This document shows positions 6,560-42,225 of a stretch of 44,866 bases of DNA, one piece after another. The DNA is from a virus (Duplodnaviria > Heunggongvirae > Uroviricota > Caudoviricetes), in the IMG/VR virus record IMGVR_UViG_2579778842_000011, positions 1-44,866 of that record. One strand, given 5' to 3'. The notes under the pieces are model-generated. The model was given only the letters and a program-made list of their open reading frames with translations. It was not told the DNA's origin and ran no database searches. A program made the translations under genes and the position numbers. Each line of letters begins with the position of its first letter. Position 1 is the stretch's first letter.

Positions 6560-6647
6560 TGGCGGTGAGGGGGGGATTCGAACCCCCGATACGTTGCCGT
6601 ATACACACTTTCCAGGCGTGCTCCTTCAGCCACTCGGACACCTCACC
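6560..6647 (-). tRNA. serX: tRNA-Ser (anticodon GGA)
   Basis: Reverse complement reads GGTGAGGTGTCCGAGTGG...CCTGGAAAG...GGTTCGAATCCCCCCCTCACCGCCA: 88 nt, long variable arm, GGA anticodon loop, CCA end; adjacent to ghrA as at the serX locus. Confidence 0.9.
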
Positions 6648-8299: not shown

Positions 8300-8350
8300 C
8301 TAAAATTTTTATTCATCGAATCGTTTGATTGATTAGTGAGCGGTTGAACG

Positions 8351-8405
8351 AAAAAAGATGAAAAAACTTCGAAAAAATTTCAAAAAAGACTTGACAAAAT
8401 CAAAA
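8351..8405. repeat. Phased A-tract array (predicted intrinsically bent DNA)
   Basis: A6 tracts at 8351, 8361, 8372, 8382 plus A4 tracts at 8395 and 8402, i.e. about 10-11 bp periodicity. Confidence 0.6.
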
Positions 8406-8642
8406 GGTACTGTTCCACGGGTGAAATAAAGGGAGTTTTCGGCACCCCGGTTTTTGATGTGCGTGTGAGATTTCAAAACAGGTGCAGTGCAGCCCACCAG
8501 CGCGGTCGCTACGCGACTATTAACACCCGCTAATCCCTTTCCCCGCCTCGATCTTTCCCTTCGTTATAAAGCGTTTTAGGCGCTCTCCTGAATGCGCAGA
8601 TCAGATAAATAATTTTACGCAAATTTAATGGAGGATAACCGG

Positions 8643-9197
8643 ATGAAAGAAGAATTAACCCTTACAGAAATTTCCCGCTTATACGGCTATACAATTAACG
8701 CCGCTAAGAAATGGCAAGAACGAGGAATGCCATTTAACACCAATACCCGCCGCGTACCAGCCAAAGAGGGGACCGAGTGGGTATTAAAAAATATCATCAA
8801 CCCGCTTAAAGAAACTACTGTCAAAGAACAAATCGACGTAGAAAAATTACGCCGTGAGAGAGCATTAGCGGATGCAGCCGAACGAGAGAACCAGGAAGCA
8901 ATGAATCTCCTGATTCCCGTCGGTTATGTAGAACAGCAACTAGCGGAATATTGCGGGAAAGTGAAGCAGACTATTTTGCAGATCGCCACAATCGACGCTT
9001 TAGAAATTCTCGAATCTGCCACTGACCAGAAAACATTAAAGAATAAGCTAAGGGAGATTATCGAGCGTCGTTTAAATGAAGTAGGGGACTTGTTCGAAAA
9101 TGCAGATTTGGGAGAAGACGAGGAAGAAGAATTACCATTAATGGATGAACCGGAAGAACAAGAACCAGAAGAAGACGATGAATTTGATGTGTCTTAA
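8643..9197 (+). CDS. Nu1-like winged-helix DNA-binding protein (terminase small subunit or recombination directionality factor candidate)
   Basis: ATG 8643 with GGAGG RBS; LTLTEISRLYGYTINAAKKWQERGMPF and EKLRRERALADAA resemble recalled lambda Nu1 N-terminus; acidic C-terminal tail. Confidence 0.45.
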   Translation: MKEELTLTEISRLYGYTINAAKKWQERGMPFNTNTRRVPAKEGTEWVLKNIINPLKETTVKEQIDVEKLRRERALADAAERENQEAMNLLIPVGYVEQQLAEYCGKVKQTILQIATIDALEILESATDQKTLKNKLREIIERRLNEVGDLFENADLGEDEEEELPLMDEPEEQEPEEDDEFDVS

Positions 9198-10922: not shown

Positions 10923-11105
10923 TTACCAGACCTCGGCGGTAATCTTTACTTTAATGTCATACTTCTTTAAGAGTTTGTGAAAGGTTGATTGATCAATACC
11001 TTCACCTTTAAACCATTCACCCATCACTACATCAGGTGTCAGTTCAAAATAACGCTTTGCCATTTCTAAAACGATTTCACGAGTGAACTTAACAGGTCGT
11101 GCCAT
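10923..11105 (-). CDS. Small DNA-binding protein with resolvase/Hin-type HTH-like motif
   Basis: 60 aa; AGGAGG RBS; RPVKFTRE...GIDQSTFHKLLKKYDIK pattern; paralogous to 14641..14865. Confidence 0.45.
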   Translation of the reverse strand: MARPVKFTREIVLEMAKRYFELTPDVVMGEWFKGEGIDQSTFHKLLKKYDIKVKITAEVW

Positions 11106-11622: not shown

Positions 11623-11808
11623 TTGCCCCTGAATTTTTGCCCCTGAACCAAAATCCCCTAGATTCCACATCCAATTTTTGCCCCTGAAACCCACTATTTT
11701 TGCCCCTGAAATTCTGGGAAACAGTGATTTTGCCCCTCATTTTTGCCCCTGAAATGCCAATAATTGCCCCTGAAAATCTAATTTTTGCCCCTGAAATTTG
11801 CCCCTGAA
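11623..11808 (+). repeat. Iteron-like array: 9 direct copies of TTGCCCCTGAA (8 exact, 1 variant)
   Basis: Copies at 11623, 11637, 11678, 11700, 11730 (variant TTGCCCCTCAT), 11743, 11764, 11785, 11798; all same orientation, irregular 13-41 bp spacing, within a 1.4 kb region lacking ORFs of 60 aa or more. Confidence 0.75.
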
Positions 11809-13493: not shown

Positions 13494-14324
13494 ATGAATA
13501 CTGTTACTGCTATGAATACTGCTAAAACTGCTTCCGTGTCTCTGGTTGTTGATAACACCAAACCGCTGACCATGTCTTCCCGTCAGATCGCTGAATTTAC
13601 CGGAAAAGAACACCACAAAGTTAAAGTTGATATAACTAAGATGTTGAATGCTCTAGGTTATGAAGATCACGCGAAGTTTCGCGTCATCTATTTTGACCAA
13701 TACGGACGCGAACAAAACGAATATCAACTAGACGAAGAAATGACTCTGACTCTTGTCACTGGTTACGATGTTAAGCGTCGAATGGTTGTTATTCAGGAAT
13801 GGAAACGACTGAAAGAAGAAAATGAAAAACTGCGTTCTCAGCAAGTCAACCCATACGCAAACATGACTAAGCTCGATTGGATTCGTGAGGCAATGGAATT
13901 GGAAGCCGCAAACGAACAACTGATTCAAGAAAAGAAACAACTGGTTGAATTGCATGTTCGTAAAGCTATCGACACACACAGTCTTAGCCGCTTATTAGGC
14001 GAAAAACGAGGCTCTACGAAGGTACAAATTATTCTGAAAGGTTTATGTGCTGCTGGTGTTCTTGAGCGTCGTCTGGATGCTTCTGGTAAGCCTAAAGGCT
14101 ATGATCTGCTTCCTCCTGGCTATATGTTCGCTCGTATGTCGGCACACGGTCAGATCGAGTTCACTGCTGATGCTATCCCGCATCTCGTAAAACTCGGATT
14201 GCTCGAAGAAGAAAAGGCCGCAACTTTGAAATTGCCACAGCCGAATAACTCACGAGCAATCGTCAATAATACTGCTTTGCTGATTCGTCAGAATGCTGGA
14301 TCACTGGAACACTTCGGACTGTGA
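13494..14324 (+). CDS. Rha-family phage regulatory protein / antirepressor-like
   Basis: ATG 13494 after AAGGGG; N-terminal LTMSSRQIAEFTGKEHHKVKVDITKML resembles the Phage_pRha domain; the track start at 13437 is a GTG without RBS. Confidence 0.55.
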   Translation: MNTVTAMNTAKTASVSLVVDNTKPLTMSSRQIAEFTGKEHHKVKVDITKMLNALGYEDHAKFRVIYFDQYGREQNEYQLDEEMTLTLVTGYDVKRRMVVIQEWKRLKEENEKLRSQQVNPYANMTKLDWIREAMELEAANEQLIQEKKQLVELHVRKAIDTHSLSRLLGEKRGSTKVQIILKGLCAAGVLERRLDASGKPKGYDLLPPGYMFARMSAHGQIEFTADAIPHLVKLGLLEEEKAATLKLPQPNNSRAIVNNTALLIRQNAGSLEHFGL

Positions 14325-14332
14325 TAATTTTT

Positions 14333-14356
14333 GCCCCTGAATTTCAGGGGCTTTTT
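14333..14356 (+). terminator. Rho-independent terminator built from the iteron motif
   Basis: GCCCCTGAA-T-TTCAGGGGC perfect inverted repeat followed by TTTTT. Confidence 0.75.
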
Positions 14357-14395
14357 GTATCTGGAGTTTTTCGCCGAAAACCTGCAATACAGAAT

Positions 14396-14598
14396 TTCGA
14401 AAGAATCAATAGGTTAGAGATGAGCGCAGTTTTGCGCCGATTGATTCAAGTTTGAATTTCTCGAAAGAATCAACCACTTAGATAGATACGCTGAACTTTA
14501 AGCACATCCCCTCAGTTTTGAGGGCATCTATAGATCAGTCCAAATCTCTGGACTCATCGGAAGAATCAATGACTTATAGATGAGCGCAGTTTTGCGCG
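14396..14598. repeat. Three dispersed copies of an approximately 40-bp unit with embedded small hairpins
   Basis: Units start 14396, 14459, 14556 (TCGAAAGAATCAA...TTAGAGATGAGCGCAGTTTTGCGC); hairpins GCGCA-GTTTT-GCGC, CCCTCA-GTTT-TGAGGG, AGTCCA..TGGACT, ATTCAA-GT-TTGAAT. Confidence 0.6.
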
Positions 14599-14603
14599 GA
14601 TAT

Positions 14604-14633
14604 AAAAAAAAGGCCAACCCCGAAGGATTGGCC
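14604..14633 (-). terminator. Rho-independent terminator for the minus-strand operon ending at 14641
   Basis: On minus strand GGCCAATCC-TTCG-GGGTTGGCC followed by T8. Confidence 0.75.
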
Positions 14634-14640
14634 TAGAGAA

Positions 14641-14865
14641 TCAAATTCCTGTTGCTTCTACCATTTCACCGTCAACCTGAACAAAGAATTTCAAATCAAC
14701 TTTATGGAGTGATTTGTAGAATTGAGCGATTGAAATACCGTGTTCACTCAATACTTGCTCTTTTTCGGCTTTACCTTTCGGTGCTTGATAGTACGCTTTT
14801 ACAATCGCTGCCAGTTGTTCACGATCAAAACGGCAAGGACGACCGCGAGTAGCTTTAGTAGTCAT
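14641..14865 (-). CDS. Small DNA-binding protein, paralog of 10923..11105
   Basis: Second ATG (14865) has GGAG at good spacing; TRGRPCRFDREQLAAIVKAYYQ and GISIAQFYKSLHKVDLK align with the 60-aa protein. Confidence 0.45.
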   Translation of the reverse strand: MTTKATRGRPCRFDREQLAAIVKAYYQAPKGKAEKEQVLSEHGISIAQFYKSLHKVDLKFFVQVDGEMVEATGI

Positions 14866-14899
14866 AGTCATTTCTCCAAATTAAAGTGAATGTTCACCT

Positions 14900-15502
14900 T
14901 TATTTAGAGGACTTACATTTTATCGGAAAAAGTTCTCCATCGTCAACCGACATAAAGAACTCTGCCTTAATCCCGTACTTCTTCAACCGTGAATAGTATG
15001 TACCCCGACTTATATCAACCTTGCGAAGCACTTCAAAGAACCCTTTAGGATCGTTGTAATAGTGGCTATAACGCACGTTAGCGAGTTCAACGAATAGTTC
15101 CCTTGTATCACCATAGCCTTTCTTGAAAGCCTCGTTACGATAGCGTGTAATTGCGTGATTCAATCTCTTCTGTTTCAACACTTCCCTGATCGGTGTCCAC
15201 TGCAACCGATAGATCGGACCGTCATCAATGCGATAATAACGCTTGATATCAAAATCAAACCAATCTCGGACTCTCCGAAACTCTGTATGTGATGTTCTAT
15301 GCTTCTTAAAGAAGTTGTGAACGTCTGTATAACCATTATCGCGGTAAAACTCTATTAAAATCTCTTTCGCTTCCTCACGACTAAAGCCAGATGTAGTGTA
15401 GTCGGTTTTTAAATGCTTATGCTTAACTGGCAAACGATATTCATGATCGGTACAAGACAAGGCTAATTCTAATTCATCTCTTTGTTGCTGATTAATTAGC
15501 AT
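14900..15502 (-). CDS. Hypothetical protein with C-terminal HTH-like motif shared with the two small paralogs
   Basis: 200 aa; AAAGGGGG RBS; C-terminal DISRGTYYSRLKKYGIK. Confidence 0.45.
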   Translation of the reverse strand: MLINQQQRDELELALSCTDHEYRLPVKHKHLKTDYTTSGFSREEAKEILIEFYRDNGYTDVHNFFKKHRTSHTEFRRVRDWFDFDIKRYYRIDDGPIYRLQWTPIREVLKQKRLNHAITRYRNEAFKKGYGDTRELFVELANVRYSHYYNDPKGFFEVLRKVDISRGTYYSRLKKYGIKAEFFMSVDDGELFPIKCKSSK

Positions 15503-15587
15503 ACAACCCCCTTTAATTAATACCCGTATTTATCAAAATATCAACAATTTAATAAATACCTTCATATTTCGTAATGAGGGTAATTAC

Positions 15588-17492
15588 ATGAAACTGATTT
15601 CAAATAAGGCCAAATTAAAAAAGATTCTCAGAAATATCTCTGCTGCAATTCGCCCACCTAAAGCCATGAAGCCTAGCGAATGGGTAGAGGCTAATGTAGT
15701 TGCAACCGATGGTGTTAAAGCCGGATCGCTAATTAAATTGCATCCCTTCCAACGTGGAATGATGGACGCGATCACCGAAGACCGTAGAAAAATTGTGTTT
15801 AAATGTTCGGCACAGTTGGGTAAGACCATGATTCTTAACGGAATTATCTTCCATCGGATCGCGAGTAACCCTACTAATATTGGGGTCTTGCAAAGTAACG
15901 TTAGGGAACTAAATTCTTGGATCGCTGGTAAGGTGAAGCCAGTATTAGAGGCAACGCCAGAATTAAAAGCGATGATCACCGACAAATCAGACCGTAATGC
16001 TGTTAACAACTCATCGATTATTCAGCTTCGTAATGGATCATTCATGTATTTCATGTCGCTGAACAGTCCATCACACTTGCGCGGTAAGACACTCCCTTTG
16101 ATTATTCTTGATGAAGTTGATGCGGCTGATGAATCAGACGAAGGGAACCCGATCCAGCTAGCGGAACAACGCGCAACCACTTTCGGGGAAGATGCAAGGA
16201 TCGTAATTGCTTCCACTCCAACCGCTCGTGATGGGGCGATTAACCAACAATGGGAACTCTCGGATAAGAGAAAATATCATGTCGTTTGCCAGCATTGCGG
16301 ACACAAGCACGTAATGGAATGGAGTAACGTACATTTCGATTGGCATACGATTAACGGTAAATCATTACCCAACCCAGATACAGCCGTTTACCGTTGCCCT
16401 GAATGTGAAACCGATTGGACCGAAGGGGATCGCCTCCGTGCTGTTGCTCAGGGAGAATGGGTCGCCACCGAACCAAATGCGGAAGTAATCGGTTTTCATG
16501 CTAACCGCCTTATGTCTCCGTTTAGTTCTATCCGTGCGTGTGTGGTGGACTTTGCTGATAGCTACGCGAATATGTCCCTGGCAACGTTCTACAATACAGT
16601 CCTCGGTGAAACCTTCGATGATCTTAACGAAGATCGCACAGCCGACGAACTGGAAACGCTGAAAACTGATATTAGCCTAGACAATATTCCTGATGATGTA
16701 CTGGCTCTGGTAGGTGGAGTTGACCAGCAAAAAGACCGTCTGGAATCTACCTTGCTGGGTATTTCTCGTAAAGGGCTATGCGTAGTTGATCACCGATCAT
16801 TCTATGATGTGAACTGCGAACGCCACGAATCACCAGCATATAACCAGCTTTACAACTTCCTGAAAGCTAAATTCTATACCCGATCCGGTGAACGAATCCC
16901 GATGTTATCTGCTTTCGTGGACTCATCGAACGGACGAGCTACAAACGTGATCTATCGATTCTGTAGTCGGTGGCAAAATCTAACCGCCATTAAAGGCGCA
17001 AGCAATGTTGATGCACCAATCCTTCCGGTAAAAGACACAAGAACGGGTGGTTTTACCCTTAAAATTCTGGGCGTAAACAACCTTAAAACGATGATCCGTG
17101 AAATGATTAACCGGAACTTGAGAGATGGCGATCCTCACACTGTCTTCCAGATTGGTGACGTTCCTGATGACTATTGCGAGCAATTGCTTTCTGAACAGTT
17201 GAAACGGCAGGGTAATACCACACGTTGGGTAAAAGTTGGACAAACACGAAACGAAGCGTTGGACTGCCTGGCTTATTCCTATGCTGCTTCTCGTCATGTA
17301 CTCAATAAAATGTCATGGGAAAAACTCGAAGCCATCAAAGATAGTTTGAACCGTGAACCAGAAGAATCCGTAGAAGCTCCTAAATCGCAATCTAACGAGC
17401 AAATCGAAGAAACTAAGCCAATCACACGACCACAACGTAAAAACATCGCCAGACGCCCAAATAGAGGCCGTAGCTGGGTAACATCGTTCTAA
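15588..17492 (+). CDS. Terminase large subunit (lambda GpA family)
   Basis: 634 aa; Walker-type segments; C-terminal WVKVGQTRNEALDCLAYSYAA resembles recalled lambda gpA RNEALDCFVYALAA. Confidence 0.85.
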   Translation: MKLISNKAKLKKILRNISAAIRPPKAMKPSEWVEANVVATDGVKAGSLIKLHPFQRGMMDAITEDRRKIVFKCSAQLGKTMILNGIIFHRIASNPTNIGVLQSNVRELNSWIAGKVKPVLEATPELKAMITDKSDRNAVNNSSIIQLRNGSFMYFMSLNSPSHLRGKTLPLIILDEVDAADESDEGNPIQLAEQRATTFGEDARIVIASTPTARDGAINQQWELSDKRKYHVVCQHCGHKHVMEWSNVHFDWHTINGKSLPNPDTAVYRCPECETDWTEGDRLRAVAQGEWVATEPNAEVIGFHANRLMSPFSSIRACVVDFADSYANMSLATFYNTVLGETFDDLNEDRTADELETLKTDISLDNIPDDVLALVGGVDQQKDRLESTLLGISRKGLCVVDHRSFYDVNCERHESPAYNQLYNFLKAKFYTRSGERIPMLSAFVDSSNGRATNVIYRFCSRWQNLTAIKGASNVDAPILPVKDTRTGGFTLKILGVNNLKTMIREMINRNLRDGDPHTVFQIGDVPDDYCEQLLSEQLKRQGNTTRWVKVGQTRNEALDCLAYSYAASRHVLNKMSWEKLEAIKDSLNREPEESVEAPKSQSNEQIEETKPITRPQRKNIARRPNRGRSWVTSF

Positions 17493-22071: not shown

Positions 22072-22477
22072 TAACATGCCGAGACTGAAAATCAAACGCG
22101 CCTTGCAAGATATTATCGAACAAGATTTAGGTCTGGCTTTAAACGTAGAACAAACTCAGCAAGGCTTTAGTGATGATGTGGTTTGTTGGATCACCGGAAT
22201 GAATGAGACTTACACTAGGGTCCGTGGTGGTAATGCAATGCAAGCTGAATGCGTTATCGAAATGCAATTATATTCTCAGATTCATGAAACCAAAATTCAT
22301 GAGGGTATTTGCCAGATAATCCAGATTCAGCCGGATAACCCACGTTTTAAAGATTTGGGCTTCTCTATTTCAGATATCACTCCAGTAGCTTCTAATACCG
22401 ATTATGACGATGATTCTAGTGATGGGGGTATCGTTGGGACACTTAGCCTTAAATTTTCTTATCTAGCGCGTTTTTAA
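22055..22477 (+). CDS. Putative head-tail joining protein
   Basis: ORF 22007..22477; ATG 22055 has GGGGG 5 nt upstream; overlaps end of previous gene; start uncertain (alternative 22076). Confidence 0.35.
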   Translation: MLATVNNMPRLKIKRALQDIIEQDLGLALNVEQTQQGFSDDVVCWITGMNETYTRVRGGNAMQAECVIEMQLYSQIHETKIHEGICQIIQIQPDNPRFKDLGFSISDITPVASNTDYDDDSSDGGIVGTLSLKFSYLARF

Positions 22478-38093: not shown

Positions 38094-38441
38094 ATGGCTA
38101 AAAATATTTTCACTGAATTTCCTACTTATCCGGTCGATCAGCTTTCCGGTATTTTTATTAATGGCATTAGCCCAGAATCAATGACTTATGATTTTGCGGC
38201 GAAGAGAGTTAAACATAAACAATATAAAGAATGTATCCGCGATCATGAAAAAGGGACCGTGTTTTGTGTCGCTACATTGGCTAAACGTCCTAAATATCGT
38301 TTTCGTGTAGGACAAGAAGTTGATGTGGTTAATCCTTATAGCTTTAACTGTCTGGGCGATGCACGCGCGGTGTGTGTAGGCACTGCTCCTTATTATATCA
38401 AGGGTATGCGCTTTATTGGTTATATCTTCGAAATGATCTAA
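38094..38441 (+). CDS. Hypothetical protein
   Basis: 115 aa ORF in the operon preceding the endolysin. Confidence 0.45.
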   Translation: MAKNIFTEFPTYPVDQLSGIFINGISPESMTYDFAAKRVKHKQYKECIRDHEKGTVFCVATLAKRPKYRFRVGQEVDVVNPYSFNCLGDARAVCVGTAPYYIKGMRFIGYIFEMI

Positions 38442-38835: not shown

Positions 38836-40326
38836 TTATATAGCAATGGTTTTAGTTGCATAGCTGAACTTGTCGGTTAGATAATAGCGGATTCTCTCAA
38901 GTGCATGTTTTACCGCATAATTTTTATGCTTGACTTTTCCGTTACGACCGAATATACACAGATGATCTATAAGATCCCAGACCGTTGCAATATCCTTAGA
39001 ACCATGTTTACGCAATGCACGACCGATACTCTGACGAACGATAGTTGATTCCTTCACTGGATGACCGAAAATAACATGGTGCAAATTCTTAATTGAAACA
39101 CCAGTAGAGAACACACCATAGGATGCAACACAAATGATCCCTGTTTCCCCTTCCGCTAATTTCTTAAATTCATCACGTTCTTCTGTCTTAACTCCACCGT
39201 CAATATAATAAACCTTGTCGTGTACCTTCTGTAACGCATCATACATAAGTTTTCCGTGCTTAGTATTGCGGAACATCAGGAATACGTTTTCGCCCTTCTT
39301 AGCGAGTTTTAGCGCCAAATTACAAGCAAACTTATTTCGTCGTGGGTTAGACGTAATATACTTGATCTCTTCCGCATATTCCCGCCCCTTAACCGCGCTA
39401 CATTCCTCATCGGTATAACGAAGGAAAAGGCAGTTAATTTTCAGTTTTGTCACTTGACCTTCTTCCATCAGGCGGTCAATACTCACGATCTTAGAAATAT
39501 CACCGAAAAGCCCGACGTACTGCATTAAATGGCACTTTGATTCTTTCGGGGAACCAGTCATACCGATTTTGAACTGGCAATGATTCATTCCGTTAATGAT
39601 ATTGGTAATATTTTTGGCACTAGCCTTATGTGATTCATCAACTATCAACATTCCATATTGTTTGAACCATTCAGGAGGCATCTTGCAAGCTGATTGCCAG
39701 GTACTAACCGTGATTAACCTGTCTCCCGGATGTTTCCCGCTACCACTCATCATTGTATGAATTGCTTCATAAGGGAATAGCCTATAATCGACAAAATCAT
39801 CCCTCATTTGAACCACCAGCGATGTAGTAGGGACAATGATTAGAACTTTTCCGGTGTAGTTCTCTAAGTACCAACGAGACAGCATACAAGCAATCAATGA
39901 CTTACCCGCACTGGTAGGAAGAACCAGCATTCTACGGCGATTATGAATACCCTGAAAGACTGCCTCCCTTTGATACCAGTAAGGATTGATTTTATTGGAA
40001 CCGGAATACACTTCTAGGGAATCAATCCATTCATTAATCGCGTCTTTGGTTACATCTTCCTTCTCAAGCAATCTGGGGTCAATCCAGACTGAATAGCCCA
40101 TATTTTTAACGAAGACACCCAACGTTTTTAATAGTCCAATTGGTAGGGTGTTTTCATGCGTAAACAGTCTTATTCGTCCATCCCAGCCAGAATACTTGTA
40201 ACGGGGGCTAAACCTAGCCCCTTCAACCTCAAACGAGAAATAATCTCTTAATTCCATTCCGATAGAAGGAGAGCAATCAACCTTAACGAAACTGTAATCT
40301 TGAAAATGAATTTTAATATCTTGCAT
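38836..40326 (-). CDS. SF2 DExH helicase, T4 UvsW-like
   Basis: ATG at 40326 overlapping upstream stop (TAATG); N-terminus MQDIKIHFQDYSFVKVDC and whole length resemble recalled T4 UvsW; motifs LPTSAGKSL, DESH, QSIGRALRKHG. Confidence 0.8.
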   Translation of the reverse strand: MQDIKIHFQDYSFVKVDCSPSIGMELRDYFSFEVEGARFSPRYKYSGWDGRIRLFTHENTLPIGLLKTLGVFVKNMGYSVWIDPRLLEKEDVTKDAINEWIDSLEVYSGSNKINPYWYQREAVFQGIHNRRRMLVLPTSAGKSLIACMLSRWYLENYTGKVLIIVPTTSLVVQMRDDFVDYRLFPYEAIHTMMSGSGKHPGDRLITVSTWQSACKMPPEWFKQYGMLIVDESHKASAKNITNIINGMNHCQFKIGMTGSPKESKCHLMQYVGLFGDISKIVSIDRLMEEGQVTKLKINCLFLRYTDEECSAVKGREYAEEIKYITSNPRRNKFACNLALKLAKKGENVFLMFRNTKHGKLMYDALQKVHDKVYYIDGGVKTEERDEFKKLAEGETGIICVASYGVFSTGVSIKNLHHVIFGHPVKESTIVRQSIGRALRKHGSKDIATVWDLIDHLCIFGRNGKVKHKNYAVKHALERIRYYLTDKFSYATKTIAI

Positions 40327-40895
40327 TAGTTCCACTCCACACTTGCAATATTCTTTATATTGTTTAGTGATTTATTGCAGTAGTGGAATGTTTCAGTTTT
40401 GCCGTATTCAATCCCGCCTATACCCACATCCAGTAATCTCTTTATTGCTCTTTCAGTGGCTAAAGCATGTTTCATTGATGGCATTTCACCAGCAAAGACA
40501 ATATCAAAGTTATGACCGGGATTGCGTACACCCAGATTAATGCGTCGCTTGATGATTGACTTTGTTACACCAAATTTACCAATATCCCCTGATTTCATTA
40601 CATAGAGATAAGGCACACCCGCTTTATATTGAAAGTAATCACTTTTGAGACATGCACAGCGTTTACCTTCATTAAGCAGGTTGGTAGCTGATTTGTCGGC
40701 TCTATTGCCGCATCGGGTACATGTAAGAGCAATTCTTGAATGAAGCCCTTTAAACTCACCCAGAAAGCCATGAAAGACTAATGGTAAGTCCTTATCTTTG
40801 ATGTGAGTCAGAATGCGTTGTTCTAATGCCGATGGAGTTACAGCACGGGAGGATTTAGGAGTAAAAACAATATCTTTAGCCATTACTGGAATCAT
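40326..40895 (-). CDS. Zinc-ribbon + T5orf172/GIY-YIG-like domain protein
   Basis: 189 aa; GAGG RBS; CTRCGN...CAC Cys cluster; YLYVMKSGDIGKFGVTK...R...E pattern. Confidence 0.5.
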   Translation of the reverse strand: MIPVMAKDIVFTPKSSRAVTPSALEQRILTHIKDKDLPLVFHGFLGEFKGLHSRIALTCTRCGNRADKSATNLLNEGKRCACLKSDYFQYKAGVPYLYVMKSGDIGKFGVTKSIIKRRINLGVRNPGHNFDIVFAGEMPSMKHALATERAIKRLLDVGIGGIEYGKTETFHYCNKSLNNIKNIASVEWN

Positions 40896-41017
40896 ATAGA
40901 CCTCACTTTTTTAACTTATAGGCATAACCTCAATATGGTTGGTTTGGGATTTAGGGTCGCGTATTATACACATTCAGATAGAGAATGCAATAGTAAGACA
41001 ATTTTCTCTAATAAATA

Positions 41018-41036
41018 GTAGTGAGCTTATTATTTT
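41018..41036 (+). promoter_or_regulatory. Variant copy of the recurrent 17-mer (TAATAAATAGTAGTGAGC) upstream of gene 41050
   Basis: Similarity to the copies at 9204, 11159 and 12437. Confidence 0.3.
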
Positions 41037-41049
41037 AGAGGAAACTACT

Positions 41050-42225
41050 ATGAAACTTGCTTACGCTGCCGAAATTCCTTTTGTTAAGAAAACTCGCGGT
41101 TTATCACCGGAAGAGTACCAACAACGAATCATCGCTAAACTGGAACCTGCTTTCGTATTTGGTGGATTTATCCTACCGTGGAAGGGTAATCACACTTACT
41201 TTCGAATCTACAATTTAGACACACAAGAATATAAGGACTACAAATTACGCAAACTGGAAGATACTAACGGGGGTGAGTTATTCCAGACTGAAAAGGCTGT
41301 ATGGTTGAAAATGGAATCTCGTTGTAATGAGAAGGGAAAGAAATTCCTCGGATGGCAAGGAGAATGGAAAGGGCGAAATAGAACGAAAGCCCGTGTTTTG
41401 TGCCCTGAACACAATCAAATCATGACGCCATCTCTATTACATGCTCTCAAAGATGATTTCGATTTTGATTGCAAAATCTGTATGGCTGAAAAATCCCAAC
41501 GGGTAAGAAGTGGCAAGACTTTTGATGAAGTTATTAAGGACAAAGAGACAATCATCAATGCACGTTGCGAGAGTACGCCTTACACCTTCAAAGGATTCAT
41601 CATAAACACCCCACACCTAAAGGATGTTAAATTTAAAACCTATTGCAAGACACATAACCACGAATGGGAATCTCATTTAAGATGTGCTGATTCTTTCACT
41701 TGTCCGCTTTGCATTAAAGACCAACTGGTGCAACTGTCTAACCGGACTTATCAGGGTAAGGCTAGTTTCTACATTCAATTATTAGATGACAAATTTATTA
41801 AATTTGGAATCACTACCCGGAAACCAGAAGAACGAATGAGAGAGCAAACCAGAAAGAGCAACTTCACTCACCGCTTAATCTTTACTCATGAGTTTGAGGA
41901 TGGTTGGAAAGCCGTTGATTTAGAGCATGAAGTAAAACAACGCTTCAAGACTCATGCAGCACCCTACAAAGATTTCAAGGATGGATGGTCGGAAACTCTG
42001 ACTATTGATGAGTTACCACACTTACAGCAACTGGTTTATGACTACCTAACCAATCAACCGGACGAGGCTAATATGTGGGTATCCCCGAAAGATGTATTTG
42101 ATGACGATACATTCAAGCTACATACTCACTTCTACGGCATCAATAAACCGGAATTTTTCTGTATTGATGACGACAGTCCTGATTTAATGGATGAATACTT
42201 TAATACGCTCTTAGACGCTGCCTAA
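41050..42225 (+). CDS. Paralogous protein with two Cys/His zinc-ribbon modules and C-terminal T5orf172/GIY-YIG-like domain
   Basis: ATG 41050 after AGAGGA (track ORF begins upstream without RBS); CPEHN...CKIC and CKTHNHEW...CPLC; FYIQLLDDKFIKFGITTRK. Confidence 0.45.
   Translation: MKLAYAAEIPFVKKTRGLSPEEYQQRIIAKLEPAFVFGGFILPWKGNHTYFRIYNLDTQEYKDYKLRKLEDTNGGELFQTEKAVWLKMESRCNEKGKKFLGWQGEWKGRNRTKARVLCPEHNQIMTPSLLHALKDDFDFDCKICMAEKSQRVRSGKTFDEVIKDKETIINARCESTPYTFKGFIINTPHLKDVKFKTYCKTHNHEWESHLRCADSFTCPLCIKDQLVQLSNRTYQGKASFYIQLLDDKFIKFGITTRKPEERMREQTRKSNFTHRLIFTHEFEDGWKAVDLEHEVKQRFKTHAAPYKDFKDGWSETLTIDELPHLQQLVYDYLTNQPDEANMWVSPKDVFDDDTFKLHTHFYGINKPEFFCIDDDSPDLMDEYFNTLLDAA

What the first reader, a model, noticed from the sequence alone, without database searches (positions are those of the whole stretch)
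14357..14633. Three copies of a ~40-bp unit with nested small palindromes between two strong terminators
Units at 14396, 14459 and 14556 share TCGAAAGAATCAA...TTAGAGATGAGCGCAGTTTTGCGC (copies 1 and 3 nearly identical, copy 2 diverged). They are interspersed with short perfect palindromes (TTTTCG/CGAAAA, ATTCAA/TTGAAT, CCCTCA/TGAGGG, AGTCCA/TGGACT). The cluster sits in the convergence zone between the Rha-like operon terminator (14333) and the minus-strand terminator (14604). It could be a protein-binding array, a packaging or recombination site, or a small RNA locus.
Basis: seen in the sequence. Interest (0 to 1): 0.5.

Follow-up and report, generated by a model that had tools for sequence, protein, structure and literature searches.

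The report
Tandem copies of an antirepressor-gene hairpin
In an E. coli prophage, the gap between two converging operons holds a fast-changing row of short DNA hairpin units and IHF-protein binding sites; these are copies of a small segment inside the neighbouring rha (anti-repressor-like) gene, and that segment's hairpin is conserved in rha genes of many unrelated phages.

Summary
In detail: three about 40-nt units and nested palindromes lie at 14357-14606, between two opposed terminators. The region folds far better than shuffles (z -4.5). It is not a packaging site, a small-RNA gene or a host REP element. Each repeat is a perfect IHF consensus (WATCAANNNNTTR, three copies) followed by a palindromic unit: AGAT, a variable 5-6 bp stem, a 4-nt loop, ATCT. 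Both modules are homologous to one short internal segment of the adjacent rha gene and of its alleles in related prophages. In 77 of 83 distant rha genes that segment forms a 10-11 bp hairpin kept by reverse-complement codon covariation and codon choice. A covariance model built from those genes hits only the rha site and this spacer, in the window and in 32 related loci. Among 38 related E. coli prophage loci the spacer carries none (12 loci) to about six units. Most likely, though unproven, the array is extra DNA copies of an intragenic Rha/Roi-plus-IHF binding element, as I recall for HK022 roi. Rival readings are recombination debris, donor cassettes and an RNA-level role. I found no prior description.

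The parts
13494..14324 (+). rha/ant-like gene. The ORF opens at GTG 13437; the likely start is ATG 13494. The N-terminal domain is Phage_pRha.
   Evidence: Pfam PF09669 E 2.9e-11 and PHROG anti-repressor families. RefSeq names orthologues 'Rha family transcriptional regulator'.
13664..13689 (+). Intragenic palindrome/hairpin AGATCACGCGAAGTTTCGCGTCATCT, encoding ..DHAKFRVI.. This is the parent type of the intergenic units.
   Evidence: Best hit of covariance model R1 in the whole window (13659-13697, 40.9 bits, E 5e-10). Covariation across 46 rha genes. Codon-choice control.
14333..14356 (+). Intrinsic terminator of the rha operon. Its 5' arm is a copy of the TTGCCCCTGAA iteron.
14374..14417 (+). 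Fragment homologous to the coding segment ..IRKPATQNFEKINNLG.. of a Roi-like rha allele (L015/L019). It contains IHF consensus site 1 (14404-14416, AATCAATAGGTTA).
   Evidence: 38 of 44 identical, 0 of 300 shuffles score as high. IHF consensus.
14417..14441 (+). Palindromic unit 1, GAGATGAGCGCAGTTTTGCGCCGAT, with the hairpin at 14424-14437.
   Evidence: R1 hit 14418-14446, E 1e-3. Its first 22 nt (GAGATGAGCGCAGTTTTGCGCC) match the genic hairpin of allele E (L006) at 21 of 22 positions.
14444..14493 (+). Palindrome ATTCAAGTTTGAAT plus a fragment homologous to allele G coding sequence ..TEFVERINNLGY.. It contains IHF consensus site 2 (14468-14480, AATCAACCACTTA).
   Evidence: 33 of 41 identical to allele G, 0 of 300 shuffles..
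14485..14508 (+). The same unit forms a good hairpin in L018, L019 and L030.
   Evidence: Weak R1 hit on the minus strand at 14480-14509.
14506..14527 (+). Unit ATCCCCTCAGTTTTGAGGGCAT, with a 6-bp stem.
   Evidence: R1 hit with E 9e-4. It resembles the genic DPLSFEDIY-type hairpins of distant rha genes.
14531..14558 (+). Unit TAGATCAGTCCAAATCTCTGGACTCATC.
   Evidence: 24 of 28 identical to the genic hairpin of allele B (L002). R1 hits on both strands.
14564..14576 (+). IHF consensus site 3, AATCAATGACTTA.
14577..14601 (+). Palindromic unit 3, TAGATGAGCGCAGTTTTGCGCGGAT, with the hairpin at 14584-14597.
   Evidence: R1 hit 14580-14601, E 0.01. In L012 (97% identical spacer) the stem is GCTCA/TGAGC instead of GCGCA/TGCGC.
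14603..14634 (-). Intrinsic terminator of the minus-strand operon (200-aa and 76-aa genes).
   Evidence: The weak Rfam hits here are terminator-driven.
14641..14871 (-). 76-aa helix-turn-helix-like protein. It always flanks the array and is a paralogue of the 60-aa protein (10923-11105) and of two repeats in the 200-aa protein (14900-15502). It is a candidate binder only.
   Evidence: No Pfam or PHROG hit.

Best explanation
The spacer between the rha terminator and the opposing terminator holds a tandem, rapidly evolving array of short copies of one internal segment of rha-family genes. That segment carries a palindrome (outer arms AGAT/ATCT, variable inner stem, 4-nt loop) and, in Roi-like alleles, an IHF consensus site. 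These points are shown. The units and the IHF modules are homologous to that coding segment of several rha alleles. The genic palindrome is conserved across distant phages at the nucleic-acid level. The array lies outside both transcription units. It is dispensable and variable in unit number. The mechanism is inferred. The array acts on DNA as a protein-binding cluster. IHF occupies the three consensus sites and bends the DNA. A factor that binds the palindrome or hairpin, most plausibly Rha itself, occupies the units. This would parallel phage HK022, where Roi binds inside its own gene next to an IHF site. Together with the intragenic site 0.7-0.9 kb upstream, the array would restrain Rha expression or soak up Rha protein in an IHF-dependent way.
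For: Three perfect WATCAANNNNTTR sites lie on one strand within 173 nt, out of 10 in 44.9 kb. Differences among the three copies fall mainly at the N positions. Covariance model R1, built from rha genes, hits only the rha site and this spacer, both in the window and in 386 kb of related loci (70 of 70 hits). Spacer segments match coding segments of other alleles: 38/44, 33/41, 24/28 and 26/31 identical, with 0 of 300 shuffles scoring as high. The genic hairpin has 92.7% of cells paired against 78% in shuffles, and 81 double-sided changes against 23 (0 of 500). Its observed folding energy is -11.6 kcal/mol (median) against -3.0 for synonymous recodings, and 61 of 65 genes are at or below the 5% level. 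The spacer has no promoter and lies between two terminators. HK022 roi has AATCAATGATTTA at the equivalent place. That Roi and IHF bind there is from my memory of Clerget and Boccard 1996; the reference is listed in PMC3430580.
Against: No binding data exist for this phage. Twelve of 38 related loci lack the array and five more keep only one decayed unit, so any function is accessory. Inner stems differ among units of one phage and rarely match the resident gene's own stem, so a single sequence-specific dimer cannot read them all. Base-pair covariation, and a 39:19 excess of G.U over A.C mismatches on the sense strand, fit a folded single strand (RNA or ssDNA) better than a duplex operator. 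Several units are decayed. HK022 roi itself lacks the long palindrome. Arrays were not seen next to distant rha genes.
Confidence: 0.4

Rival explanations
1. The array is non-functional debris. The rha palindrome is a recombination or template-switching hot spot, and copies of it, with the neighbouring IHF-site codons, pile up and decay in a spacer where insertions do no harm.
For: Unit number varies from none to about six among prophages whose neighbouring 200-aa protein is 87-99% identical. Several units are decayed, for example 14485-14508 and the single units of L005 and L020. An empty form and a filled form differ by a 60-nt block flanked by the direct repeat CCTACA (L028 versus L006). 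The rha gene is mosaic around the hairpin. Arrays are absent next to distant rha genes.
Against: Only this one 25-55 nt segment of the gene is ever found in the spacer, never other parts. Many units keep perfect 5-6 bp stems. Two units have stems one pair longer than their genic counterparts (CCCTCA/TGAGGG and AGTCCA/TGGACT). The IHF consensus positions are intact in all six full modules seen. No known mechanism copies such a segment 0.7 kb downstream.
Confidence: 0.28
2. The units work as RNA (or as folded single-stranded DNA). Anti-terminated read-through from the rha or late operon transcribes the hairpins. They then stabilise or process the transcript, or compete for a factor that recognises the hairpin in rha mRNA.
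For: Stem covariation and the G.U over A.C bias on the sense strand. About two thirds of the units have the orientation of the gene. The genic hairpin is in an mRNA by definition, and in this family it is followed by a U-rich tract.
Against: The array lies beyond a strong terminator on each side and has no promoter. IHF sites make sense on DNA, not RNA. There is no Rfam family. No transcript data are available.
Confidence: 0.12
3. The array is a set of silent donor cassettes for segmental gene conversion. The units are promoterless allelic versions of the variable rha segment and can be copied into the gene to change the protein or its embedded site.
For: The layout matches: partial copies of one variable segment of the adjacent gene, in many allelic forms, mostly in the gene's orientation and flanked by the short conserved motifs TAGAT and ATCTAT. 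Units read in the gene's frame give rha-like peptides (DERSFAPI, HPLSFEGIY). Closely related prophages carry different genic variants.
Against: The genic variant almost never matches a unit in the same genome; only L010 and L014 come close. Allelic differences extend about 60 nt upstream of the hairpin rather than being patch-limited. No recombinase or initiating mechanism is identified. Many units are out of register or decayed.
Confidence: 0.1
4. The array is a cosB-like packaging site: three terminase-binding repeats plus an IHF site near the large terminase gene, as in lambda.
For: A lambda-type gpA terminase gene lies 1 kb away. Three repeats plus IHF sites resemble the R3-I1-R2-R1 layout of lambda cosB (my own knowledge).
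Against: The array is absent in 12 of 38 relatives that have the same terminase region. The Nu1-like small terminase gene is at 8628-9197, not adjacent. Two opposite-strand genes separate the array from the large terminase gene. The repeats are homologous to rha coding sequence.
Confidence: 0.03
5. The array is an independent small-RNA gene or a type III toxin-antitoxin-like repeat RNA.
For: It contains tandem structured repeats.
Against: There is no promoter. No terminator follows the array on its own strand, and no toxin gene lies downstream in the same orientation. The repeats are not identical. Units are gained and lost among relatives. There is no Rfam hit.
Confidence: 0.03
6. The array is an ordinary host REP/BIME element that landed in the prophage.
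For: It consists of extragenic palindromes with IHF sites at the 3' ends of convergent operons, and the copy number varies.
Against: The units occur only in rha and this spacer, not elsewhere in the window (which includes its E. coli flank) or in 386 kb of related loci. The sequence is unlike E. coli REPs (my own knowledge). Orientation does not alternate. The units are homologous to rha coding sequence.
Confidence: 0.02

Closest known systems
Intragenic Roi-binding site with adjacent IHF site in the roi gene of phage HK022 (Clerget and Boccard 1996, recalled from memory; cited as ref. 59 in PMC3430580)
   Same: It involves a Phage_pRha-family gene. An IHF consensus lies inside the coding sequence at the equivalent place: HK022 has AATCAATGATTTA and the array has AATCAATGACTTA. 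Window 14374-14417 is 38/44 identical to the same segment of a Roi-like allele in a sister prophage.
   Different: In HK022 the element is a single intragenic site. Here it is multiplied in tandem outside the gene, with many allelic forms. The resident rha allele has the long hairpin but no IHF consensus. Binding has not been tested here.
E. coli BIME-1 / RIB / RIP elements (REP palindromes flanking an IHF site at the 3' ends of operons; PMC3333891, PMC2817692, PMC3733652)
   Same: Short extragenic palindromes combined with IHF sites, placed after terminators between convergent genes, variable in copy number, with a TAG-containing motif at the 5' side of each palindrome.
   Different: The units are not dispersed: they occur at two places only. 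Their stems are variable rather than uniform. They do not alternate in orientation. No REP-associated transposase is seen. They derive from a coding segment of the neighbouring gene.
Silent cassette or donor-site arrays for segmental gene conversion (Neisseria pilS, Borrelia vls, Treponema tprK donor sites; my own knowledge)
   Same: An array of promoterless partial copies of one variable segment of a nearby expressed gene, in many allelic forms.
   Different: No match between the expressed variant and the local donors, no patch-limited mosaicism, much shorter units, and a palindromic structure.
Lambda cosB (R3-I1-R2-R1)
   Same: Three repeats with IHF sites near lambda-type terminase genes.
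   Different: The array is dispensable among relatives, is not adjacent to the small terminase gene, and its repeats are rha-derived.
RNA control of antirepressor genes (P22 sar/ant, P1 and P7 c4/ant; my own knowledge)
   Same: Short structured elements tied to an antirepressor-type gene, whose sequence differs between related phages while pairing is kept.
   Different: No antisense transcript, promoter or complementary partner was found here, and the structure lies inside the coding region.

Membership tests
REP/BIME (including RIB/RIP) | Short imperfect palindromes in extragenic DNA at the 3' ends of transcription units | tested here: met
   Units of 22-30 nt lie between two convergent terminators.
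REP/BIME (including RIB/RIP) | High copy number dispersed over the genome (over 100 copies; PMC2817692) | tested here: not met
   Model R1 finds hits only in rha and this spacer, both in the 44.9-kb window (filters off) and in 32 related loci.
REP/BIME (including RIB/RIP) | Conserved GTAG (or CGTC) tag at one end of the palindrome (PMC3733652) | tested here: inconclusive
   The units start with TAGAT, ATAGAT or TTAGAGAT. A true GTAG is seen only in some relatives (CTGTAGAT).
REP/BIME (including RIB/RIP) | Successive units in alternating orientation | tested here: not met
   About two thirds of the units share the orientation of the gene, and there is no regular alternation.
REP/BIME (including RIB/RIP) | IHF consensus between palindromes (BIME-1/RIB) | tested here: met
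   Three perfect WATCAANNNNTTR sites at 14404, 14468 and 14564.
REP/BIME (including RIB/RIP) | Associated REP-specific Y1 transposase (RAYT) | not tested
   None was noticed among the proteins scanned, but not every ORF was scanned.
Roi/Rha intragenic operator plus IHF site (HK022 type) | Belongs to a Phage_pRha-family gene | tested here: met
   PF09669 E 2.9e-11 for the adjacent gene. The units are homologous to its internal segment.
Roi/Rha intragenic operator plus IHF site (HK022 type) | IHF consensus closely linked to the site | tested here: met
   The Roi-like allele segment is 38/44 identical to window 14374-14417.
Roi/Rha intragenic operator plus IHF site (HK022 type) | Bound by the Roi/Rha protein and by IHF | not testable with these tools
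   This needs gel-shift or footprinting experiments.
Lambda-type cosB | Lies directly upstream of the small terminase gene, next to the cleavage site | tested here: not met
   The small terminase gene is at 8628-9197. The array is at 14357-14603, with opposite-strand genes before the large terminase gene.
Lambda-type cosB | Conserved in all relatives that use the same terminase | tested here: not met
   Twelve of 38 related loci have no unit.
Type III toxin-antitoxin repeat RNA (ToxI-like) | Promoter, near-identical tandem repeats, terminator, then a toxin gene on the same strand | tested here: not met
   No promoter; the repeats are diverged; the downstream genes are antisense.
Silent-cassette gene conversion systems | Array of promoterless partial copies of the variable segment of a nearby expressed gene | tested here: met
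Silent-cassette gene conversion systems | The expressed variant is identical to a donor in the same genome, with patch-limited mosaicism | tested here: not met
   Self matches are absent except for near-matches in L010 and L014. Allelic differences extend about 60 nt upstream.
Any Rfam RNA family | Reaches the family's gathering score | tested here: not met

The most novel reading that the evidence does not exclude
The array is a device for competition between phages, built from a structured element embedded in a coding sequence. It would be a library of allelic versions of the Rha palindrome (plus IHF site). These would serve as decoy operators that soak up Rha-type antirepressors of rival phages, or as donor cassettes that reprogramme the resident rha segment. 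Either way, the rha hairpin, kept by reverse-complement codon covariation in phages of E. coli, Vibrio, Acinetobacter and Pseudomonas, would be a previously unrecognised cis-element class that dictates part of a protein's sequence.
Probability: 0.12. Interest if true: 0.85.

Novelty: new variant of a known kind. Interest (0 to 1): 0.62.

Why it matters
Three things would follow if this holds. First, rha-family genes are among the commonest phage regulatory genes, yet their control is poorly understood. A hairpin or palindrome embedded in the coding sequence and conserved across genera, constraining about eight codons to be pairwise reverse complements, is a concrete, testable cis-element. It is also a rare clear case of nucleic-acid structure overriding protein sequence. 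Second, the link to IHF offers a molecular handle on the old rha/roi phenotype, in which phage growth is blocked in hosts lacking IHF. Third, a tandem array of allelic copies of a gene-internal element, gained and lost among near-identical prophages, is an unusual evolutionary pattern. It could reflect operator multiplication, decoys or cassette exchange, and each possibility can be tested with simple binding and deletion experiments.

Tried and rejected
- Nucleotide search of deposited phage genomes found no match.
- One viral-contig scan used a pattern that was too degenerate and returned only chance hits; loci L033-L151 are ignored.
- The genome-collection scan with the 200-aa protein found no relatives among species representatives, so the family looks restricted to E. 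coli.
- Rfam searches of the whole window, the spacer and the genic site found nothing meaningful.
- The promoter scan found none in the spacer.
- A host REP/BIME element was rejected for lack of dispersal.
- A cosB-like site was rejected on dispensability and position.
- A type III toxin-antitoxin repeat RNA and an sRNA gene were rejected on layout.
- A rule that arrays avoid the gene's own variant was considered. Arrays do mostly carry non-self variants. This is also expected simply because long direct repeats of the gene's own segment would delete the 3' part of rha, so it was not used as evidence.
- The HK022 roi paper could not be retrieved, and literature searches found no description of the rha hairpin or the array.
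- No solved structure of the domain exists. The single-sequence AlphaFold model was too poor to place the hairpin-encoded residues (pLDDT 49).
- HK022 roi was checked and lacks the long palindrome.

Full report
**Observation.** The sequence features are as described. A 45-nt repeat lies at 14397-14441 and 14557-14601 (87% identical). Three 22-nt copies start at 14397, 14461 and 14557. The 19-mer GATGAGCGCAGTTTTGCGC occurs twice and nowhere else in the window (0 of 100 shuffles). TCGRAAGAATCAA occurs three times exactly, against 0.14 expected. A plus-strand terminator (14333-14351) and a minus-strand terminator (14634-14611) bracket the region, and no sigma-70-like promoter is found inside it. 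As a single DNA strand, 14352-14606 folds at -39.4 kcal/mol against -24.5 +/- 3.3 for shuffles (z -4.54). Rfam gives only weak hits caused by the terminator.

**Context.**
- The left part of the window is E. coli chromosome: tRNA-Ser at 6560-6647, and ORFs I recognise as ghrA and a truncated ycdX.
- From about 8300 rightwards the window is a low-GC prophage. It has a lambda-type large terminase (15588-17492) and portal gene, and a Nu1-like small terminase gene at 8628-9197.
- The family occurs in 55 of 5426 complete E. coli genomes. It has no nucleotide match among deposited phages and no relatives among species-representative genomes.
- The array lies between a Phage_pRha-family gene (13494-14324; PF09669 E 2.9e-11) and a 76-aa helix-turn-helix-like gene on the other strand. 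That gene has paralogues at 10923-11105 and within 14900-15502.
- RefSeq annotates nothing in the homologous spacer.

**Comparison with relatives.** I compared 38 related loci (32 from IMG/VR and 6 from assemblies); across the 32 IMG/VR loci the neighbouring 200-aa protein is 87-99% identical.
- The spacer ranges from 74 to 316 nt, in 27 distinct versions.
- Twelve loci have the two terminators back to back. Five keep one decayed unit. Others carry up to about six units.
- The units share one design: (T)AGAT, a 1x1 or 2x2 mismatch, a 5-6 bp stem whose sequence differs from unit to unit (GCGCA, GCTCA, CCTCA, GTCCA, ATCCA, CAGCA, CGCGA and others), a 4-nt loop that is mostly NTTT, then ATCT(A). 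The linker ATCTATAGAT joins neighbouring units.
- The order of unit types is roughly conserved, so the arrays are related by descent, with gain, loss, duplication and conversion of units.
- One empty form and one filled form differ by a 60-nt block flanked by the direct repeat CCTACA.
- This variability rules out an essential packaging site.

**The units are copies of a segment of the rha gene.**
- The same design occurs inside rha at 13664-13689 (AGATCACGCGAAGTTTCGCGTCATCT, encoding DHAKFRVI).
- Orthologues carry other stems at the same codons, and each genic variant has a near-identical counterpart among the spacer units of other prophages.
- I built covariance model R1 from rha genes. Over the whole window, both strands, with filters off, its best hit is the genic site (E 5e-10). 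The next seven hits all lie in 14418-14601 (E 9e-4 to 0.14), and nothing else scores below E 0.9.
- In 386 kb of related loci, all 70 hits fall either at the genic site or in the spacer.

**The genic hairpin is a conserved feature of a whole rha subfamily.** I examined 83 loci: 76 IMG/VR loci at 41-55% protein identity to the query alignment, four E. coli-family contigs at 80-98%, and phages of Vibrio, Acinetobacter and Pseudomonas.
- In 77 of the 83, the codons around an invariant Phe fold into a 10-11 bp hairpin of -9 to -22 kcal/mol.
- The codons co-vary as reverse complements: Asp GAT with Ile ATC; Ala GCA with Cys TGC; Val GTG with His CAC; Ser TCC with Gly GGA; Leu CTC with Glu GAG; Leu CTG with Gln CAG.
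- On 46 distinct sequences, 92.7% of cells pair against 78% in shuffles (0 of 500). There are 81 double-sided changes against 23 (0 of 500). Partners slid by 1-3 columns give only 21-51% pairing.
- Codon choice also matters. The median folding energy is -11.6 kcal/mol, against -3.0 for synonymous recodings. In 61 of 65 distinct genes, at most 5% of recodings are as stable as the real sequence.
- Mismatches are G.U rather than A.C by 39 to 19 on the sense strand.
- Outside the E. coli family no extra copies flank the gene.
- I found no Rfam family and no paper describing this.

**The other half of the repeat is an IHF site, and it too comes from rha coding sequence.**
- The conserved 5' part of each repeat is a perfect IHF consensus WATCAANNNNTTR at 14404, 14468 and 14564. 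These are 3 of only 10 such sites in the window. The three copies differ mainly at the N positions.
- Other rha alleles in sister prophages encode ..ERINNLG....EKINGLG.. or, in a Roi-like allele..IRKPATQNFEKINNLG.. with exactly this consensus in their codons.
- Spacer segments align to these coding segments: 14374-14417 at 38/44 identity, 14453-14493 at 33/41, 14531-14558 at 24/28 and 14511-14539 at 26/31. In each case 0 of 300 shuffles score as high.
- HK022 roi has AATCAATGATTTA at the equivalent place.
- The whole spacer is therefore a patchwork of 25-45 nt pieces, each homologous to the same small region of a different rha allele.

**Mechanism.**
- Shown: homology to the rha segment, nucleic-acid-level conservation of the genic hairpin, the position outside both transcription units, and dispensability.
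- Inferred: function. From memory of Clerget and Boccard (1996; listed as ref. 59 in PMC3430580; not retrievable), HK022 Roi binds a site inside its own gene next to an IHF site, and IHF stabilises that binding. The rha and roi genes are also the genes that block phage growth in hosts lacking IHF.
- I therefore favour, at about 0.4, a DNA-level protein-binding cluster. IHF would sit at the three consensus sites. A palindrome-binding factor, probably Rha, would sit on the units. Together with the intragenic site they would restrain or titrate Rha.
- Against this model: stems differ within one phage and rarely match the resident gene, and covariation with a G.U bias suggests a folded single strand.
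- The rivals are debris from a palindromic recombination hot spot (0.28), an RNA or single-strand role in read-through transcripts (0.12), donor cassettes for gene conversion (0.10), and a packaging site, an sRNA gene or a host REP element (each 0.03 or less).

**Comparison and novelty.**
- The array works most like E. coli BIME-1/RIB elements (palindromes plus IHF sites after operons; PMC3333891, PMC2817692) and like the HK022 roi intragenic site.
- It fails REP membership on dispersal and alternating orientation. It cannot be tested for Roi/IHF binding with these tools.
- Two things are new here: extragenic palindromic units derived from a coding-embedded element of the neighbouring gene, and the conservation of that element by codon covariation across phage genera.
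- I rate it a new variant of a known kind, with interest 0.62.

Noticed in passing
window 11623-11808 and 14331-14341: Eight exact direct copies of TTGCCCCTGAA at irregular spacing lie in a 1.4-kb gene-poor stretch. A ninth copy forms the 5' arm of the rha terminator. Only 0.73 are expected by chance. The arrangement looks like iterons (an origin, partition site or repressor site).
   Followed up: partly
window 8300-9197 and 15588-17492: The Nu1-like small terminase gene sits at the extreme left end of the prophage, next to the truncated host gene ycdX. It is 6.4 kb from the lambda-type large terminase gene, with regulatory and opposite-strand genes between them. This is an unusual split of the terminase genes.
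   Followed up: partly
window 10923-11105 (-), 14641-14871 (-), 14900-15502 (-): A family of small helix-turn-helix-like paralogues (60 aa, 76 aa, and two repeats in the 200-aa protein) has no Pfam or PHROG match. One member always flanks the array.
   Followed up: partly
window 13664-13700: The intragenic rha hairpin is followed by ATCTATTTTG and was flagged as terminator-like. In sister alleles it is followed by TTTTTTGA. This could be an attenuator inside the gene in this family, but not in distant rha genes.
   Followed up: partly
window 15539-15551: A further perfect IHF consensus (TATCAACAATTTA) lies in the 85-nt divergent region between the 200-aa gene and the large terminase gene.
   Followed up: no
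window 14562-14577 and 38174-38189: The 16-mer AGAATCAATGACTTAT, which includes the IHF consensus, occurs identically in the array and inside an ORF near the lysis genes. The 13-mer core also occurs at 39892.
   Followed up: no
window 22242-22332 (-): ARAGORN calls a tRNA-Gln-like gene inside the structural gene block. Rfam does not report it, so it may be a false positive.
   Followed up: no
L197, L200, L205, L207, L228, L231, L232, L235, L239 and others, about 145 nt upstream of the rha hairpin: Distant rha loci share a 36-nt near-perfect palindrome (CGCGACACGTTTTTCGAATTCTGAAAACGTGTCGCG) about 145 nt upstream of the hairpin. It may be an operator or a 5' RNA structure.
   Followed up: no
window 38836-42225: A UvsW-like helicase gene lies next to two genes encoding CapR and T5orf172 (GIY-YIG-like) domain proteins at the right side of the prophage.
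   Followed up: no
L160 (Salmonella phage Vi II-E1), about 960-1160: A short truncated rha-like ORF lies upstream of roi. It also carries a small hairpin (ACCCATTTTTGGGG) at the equivalent codons.
   Followed up: no
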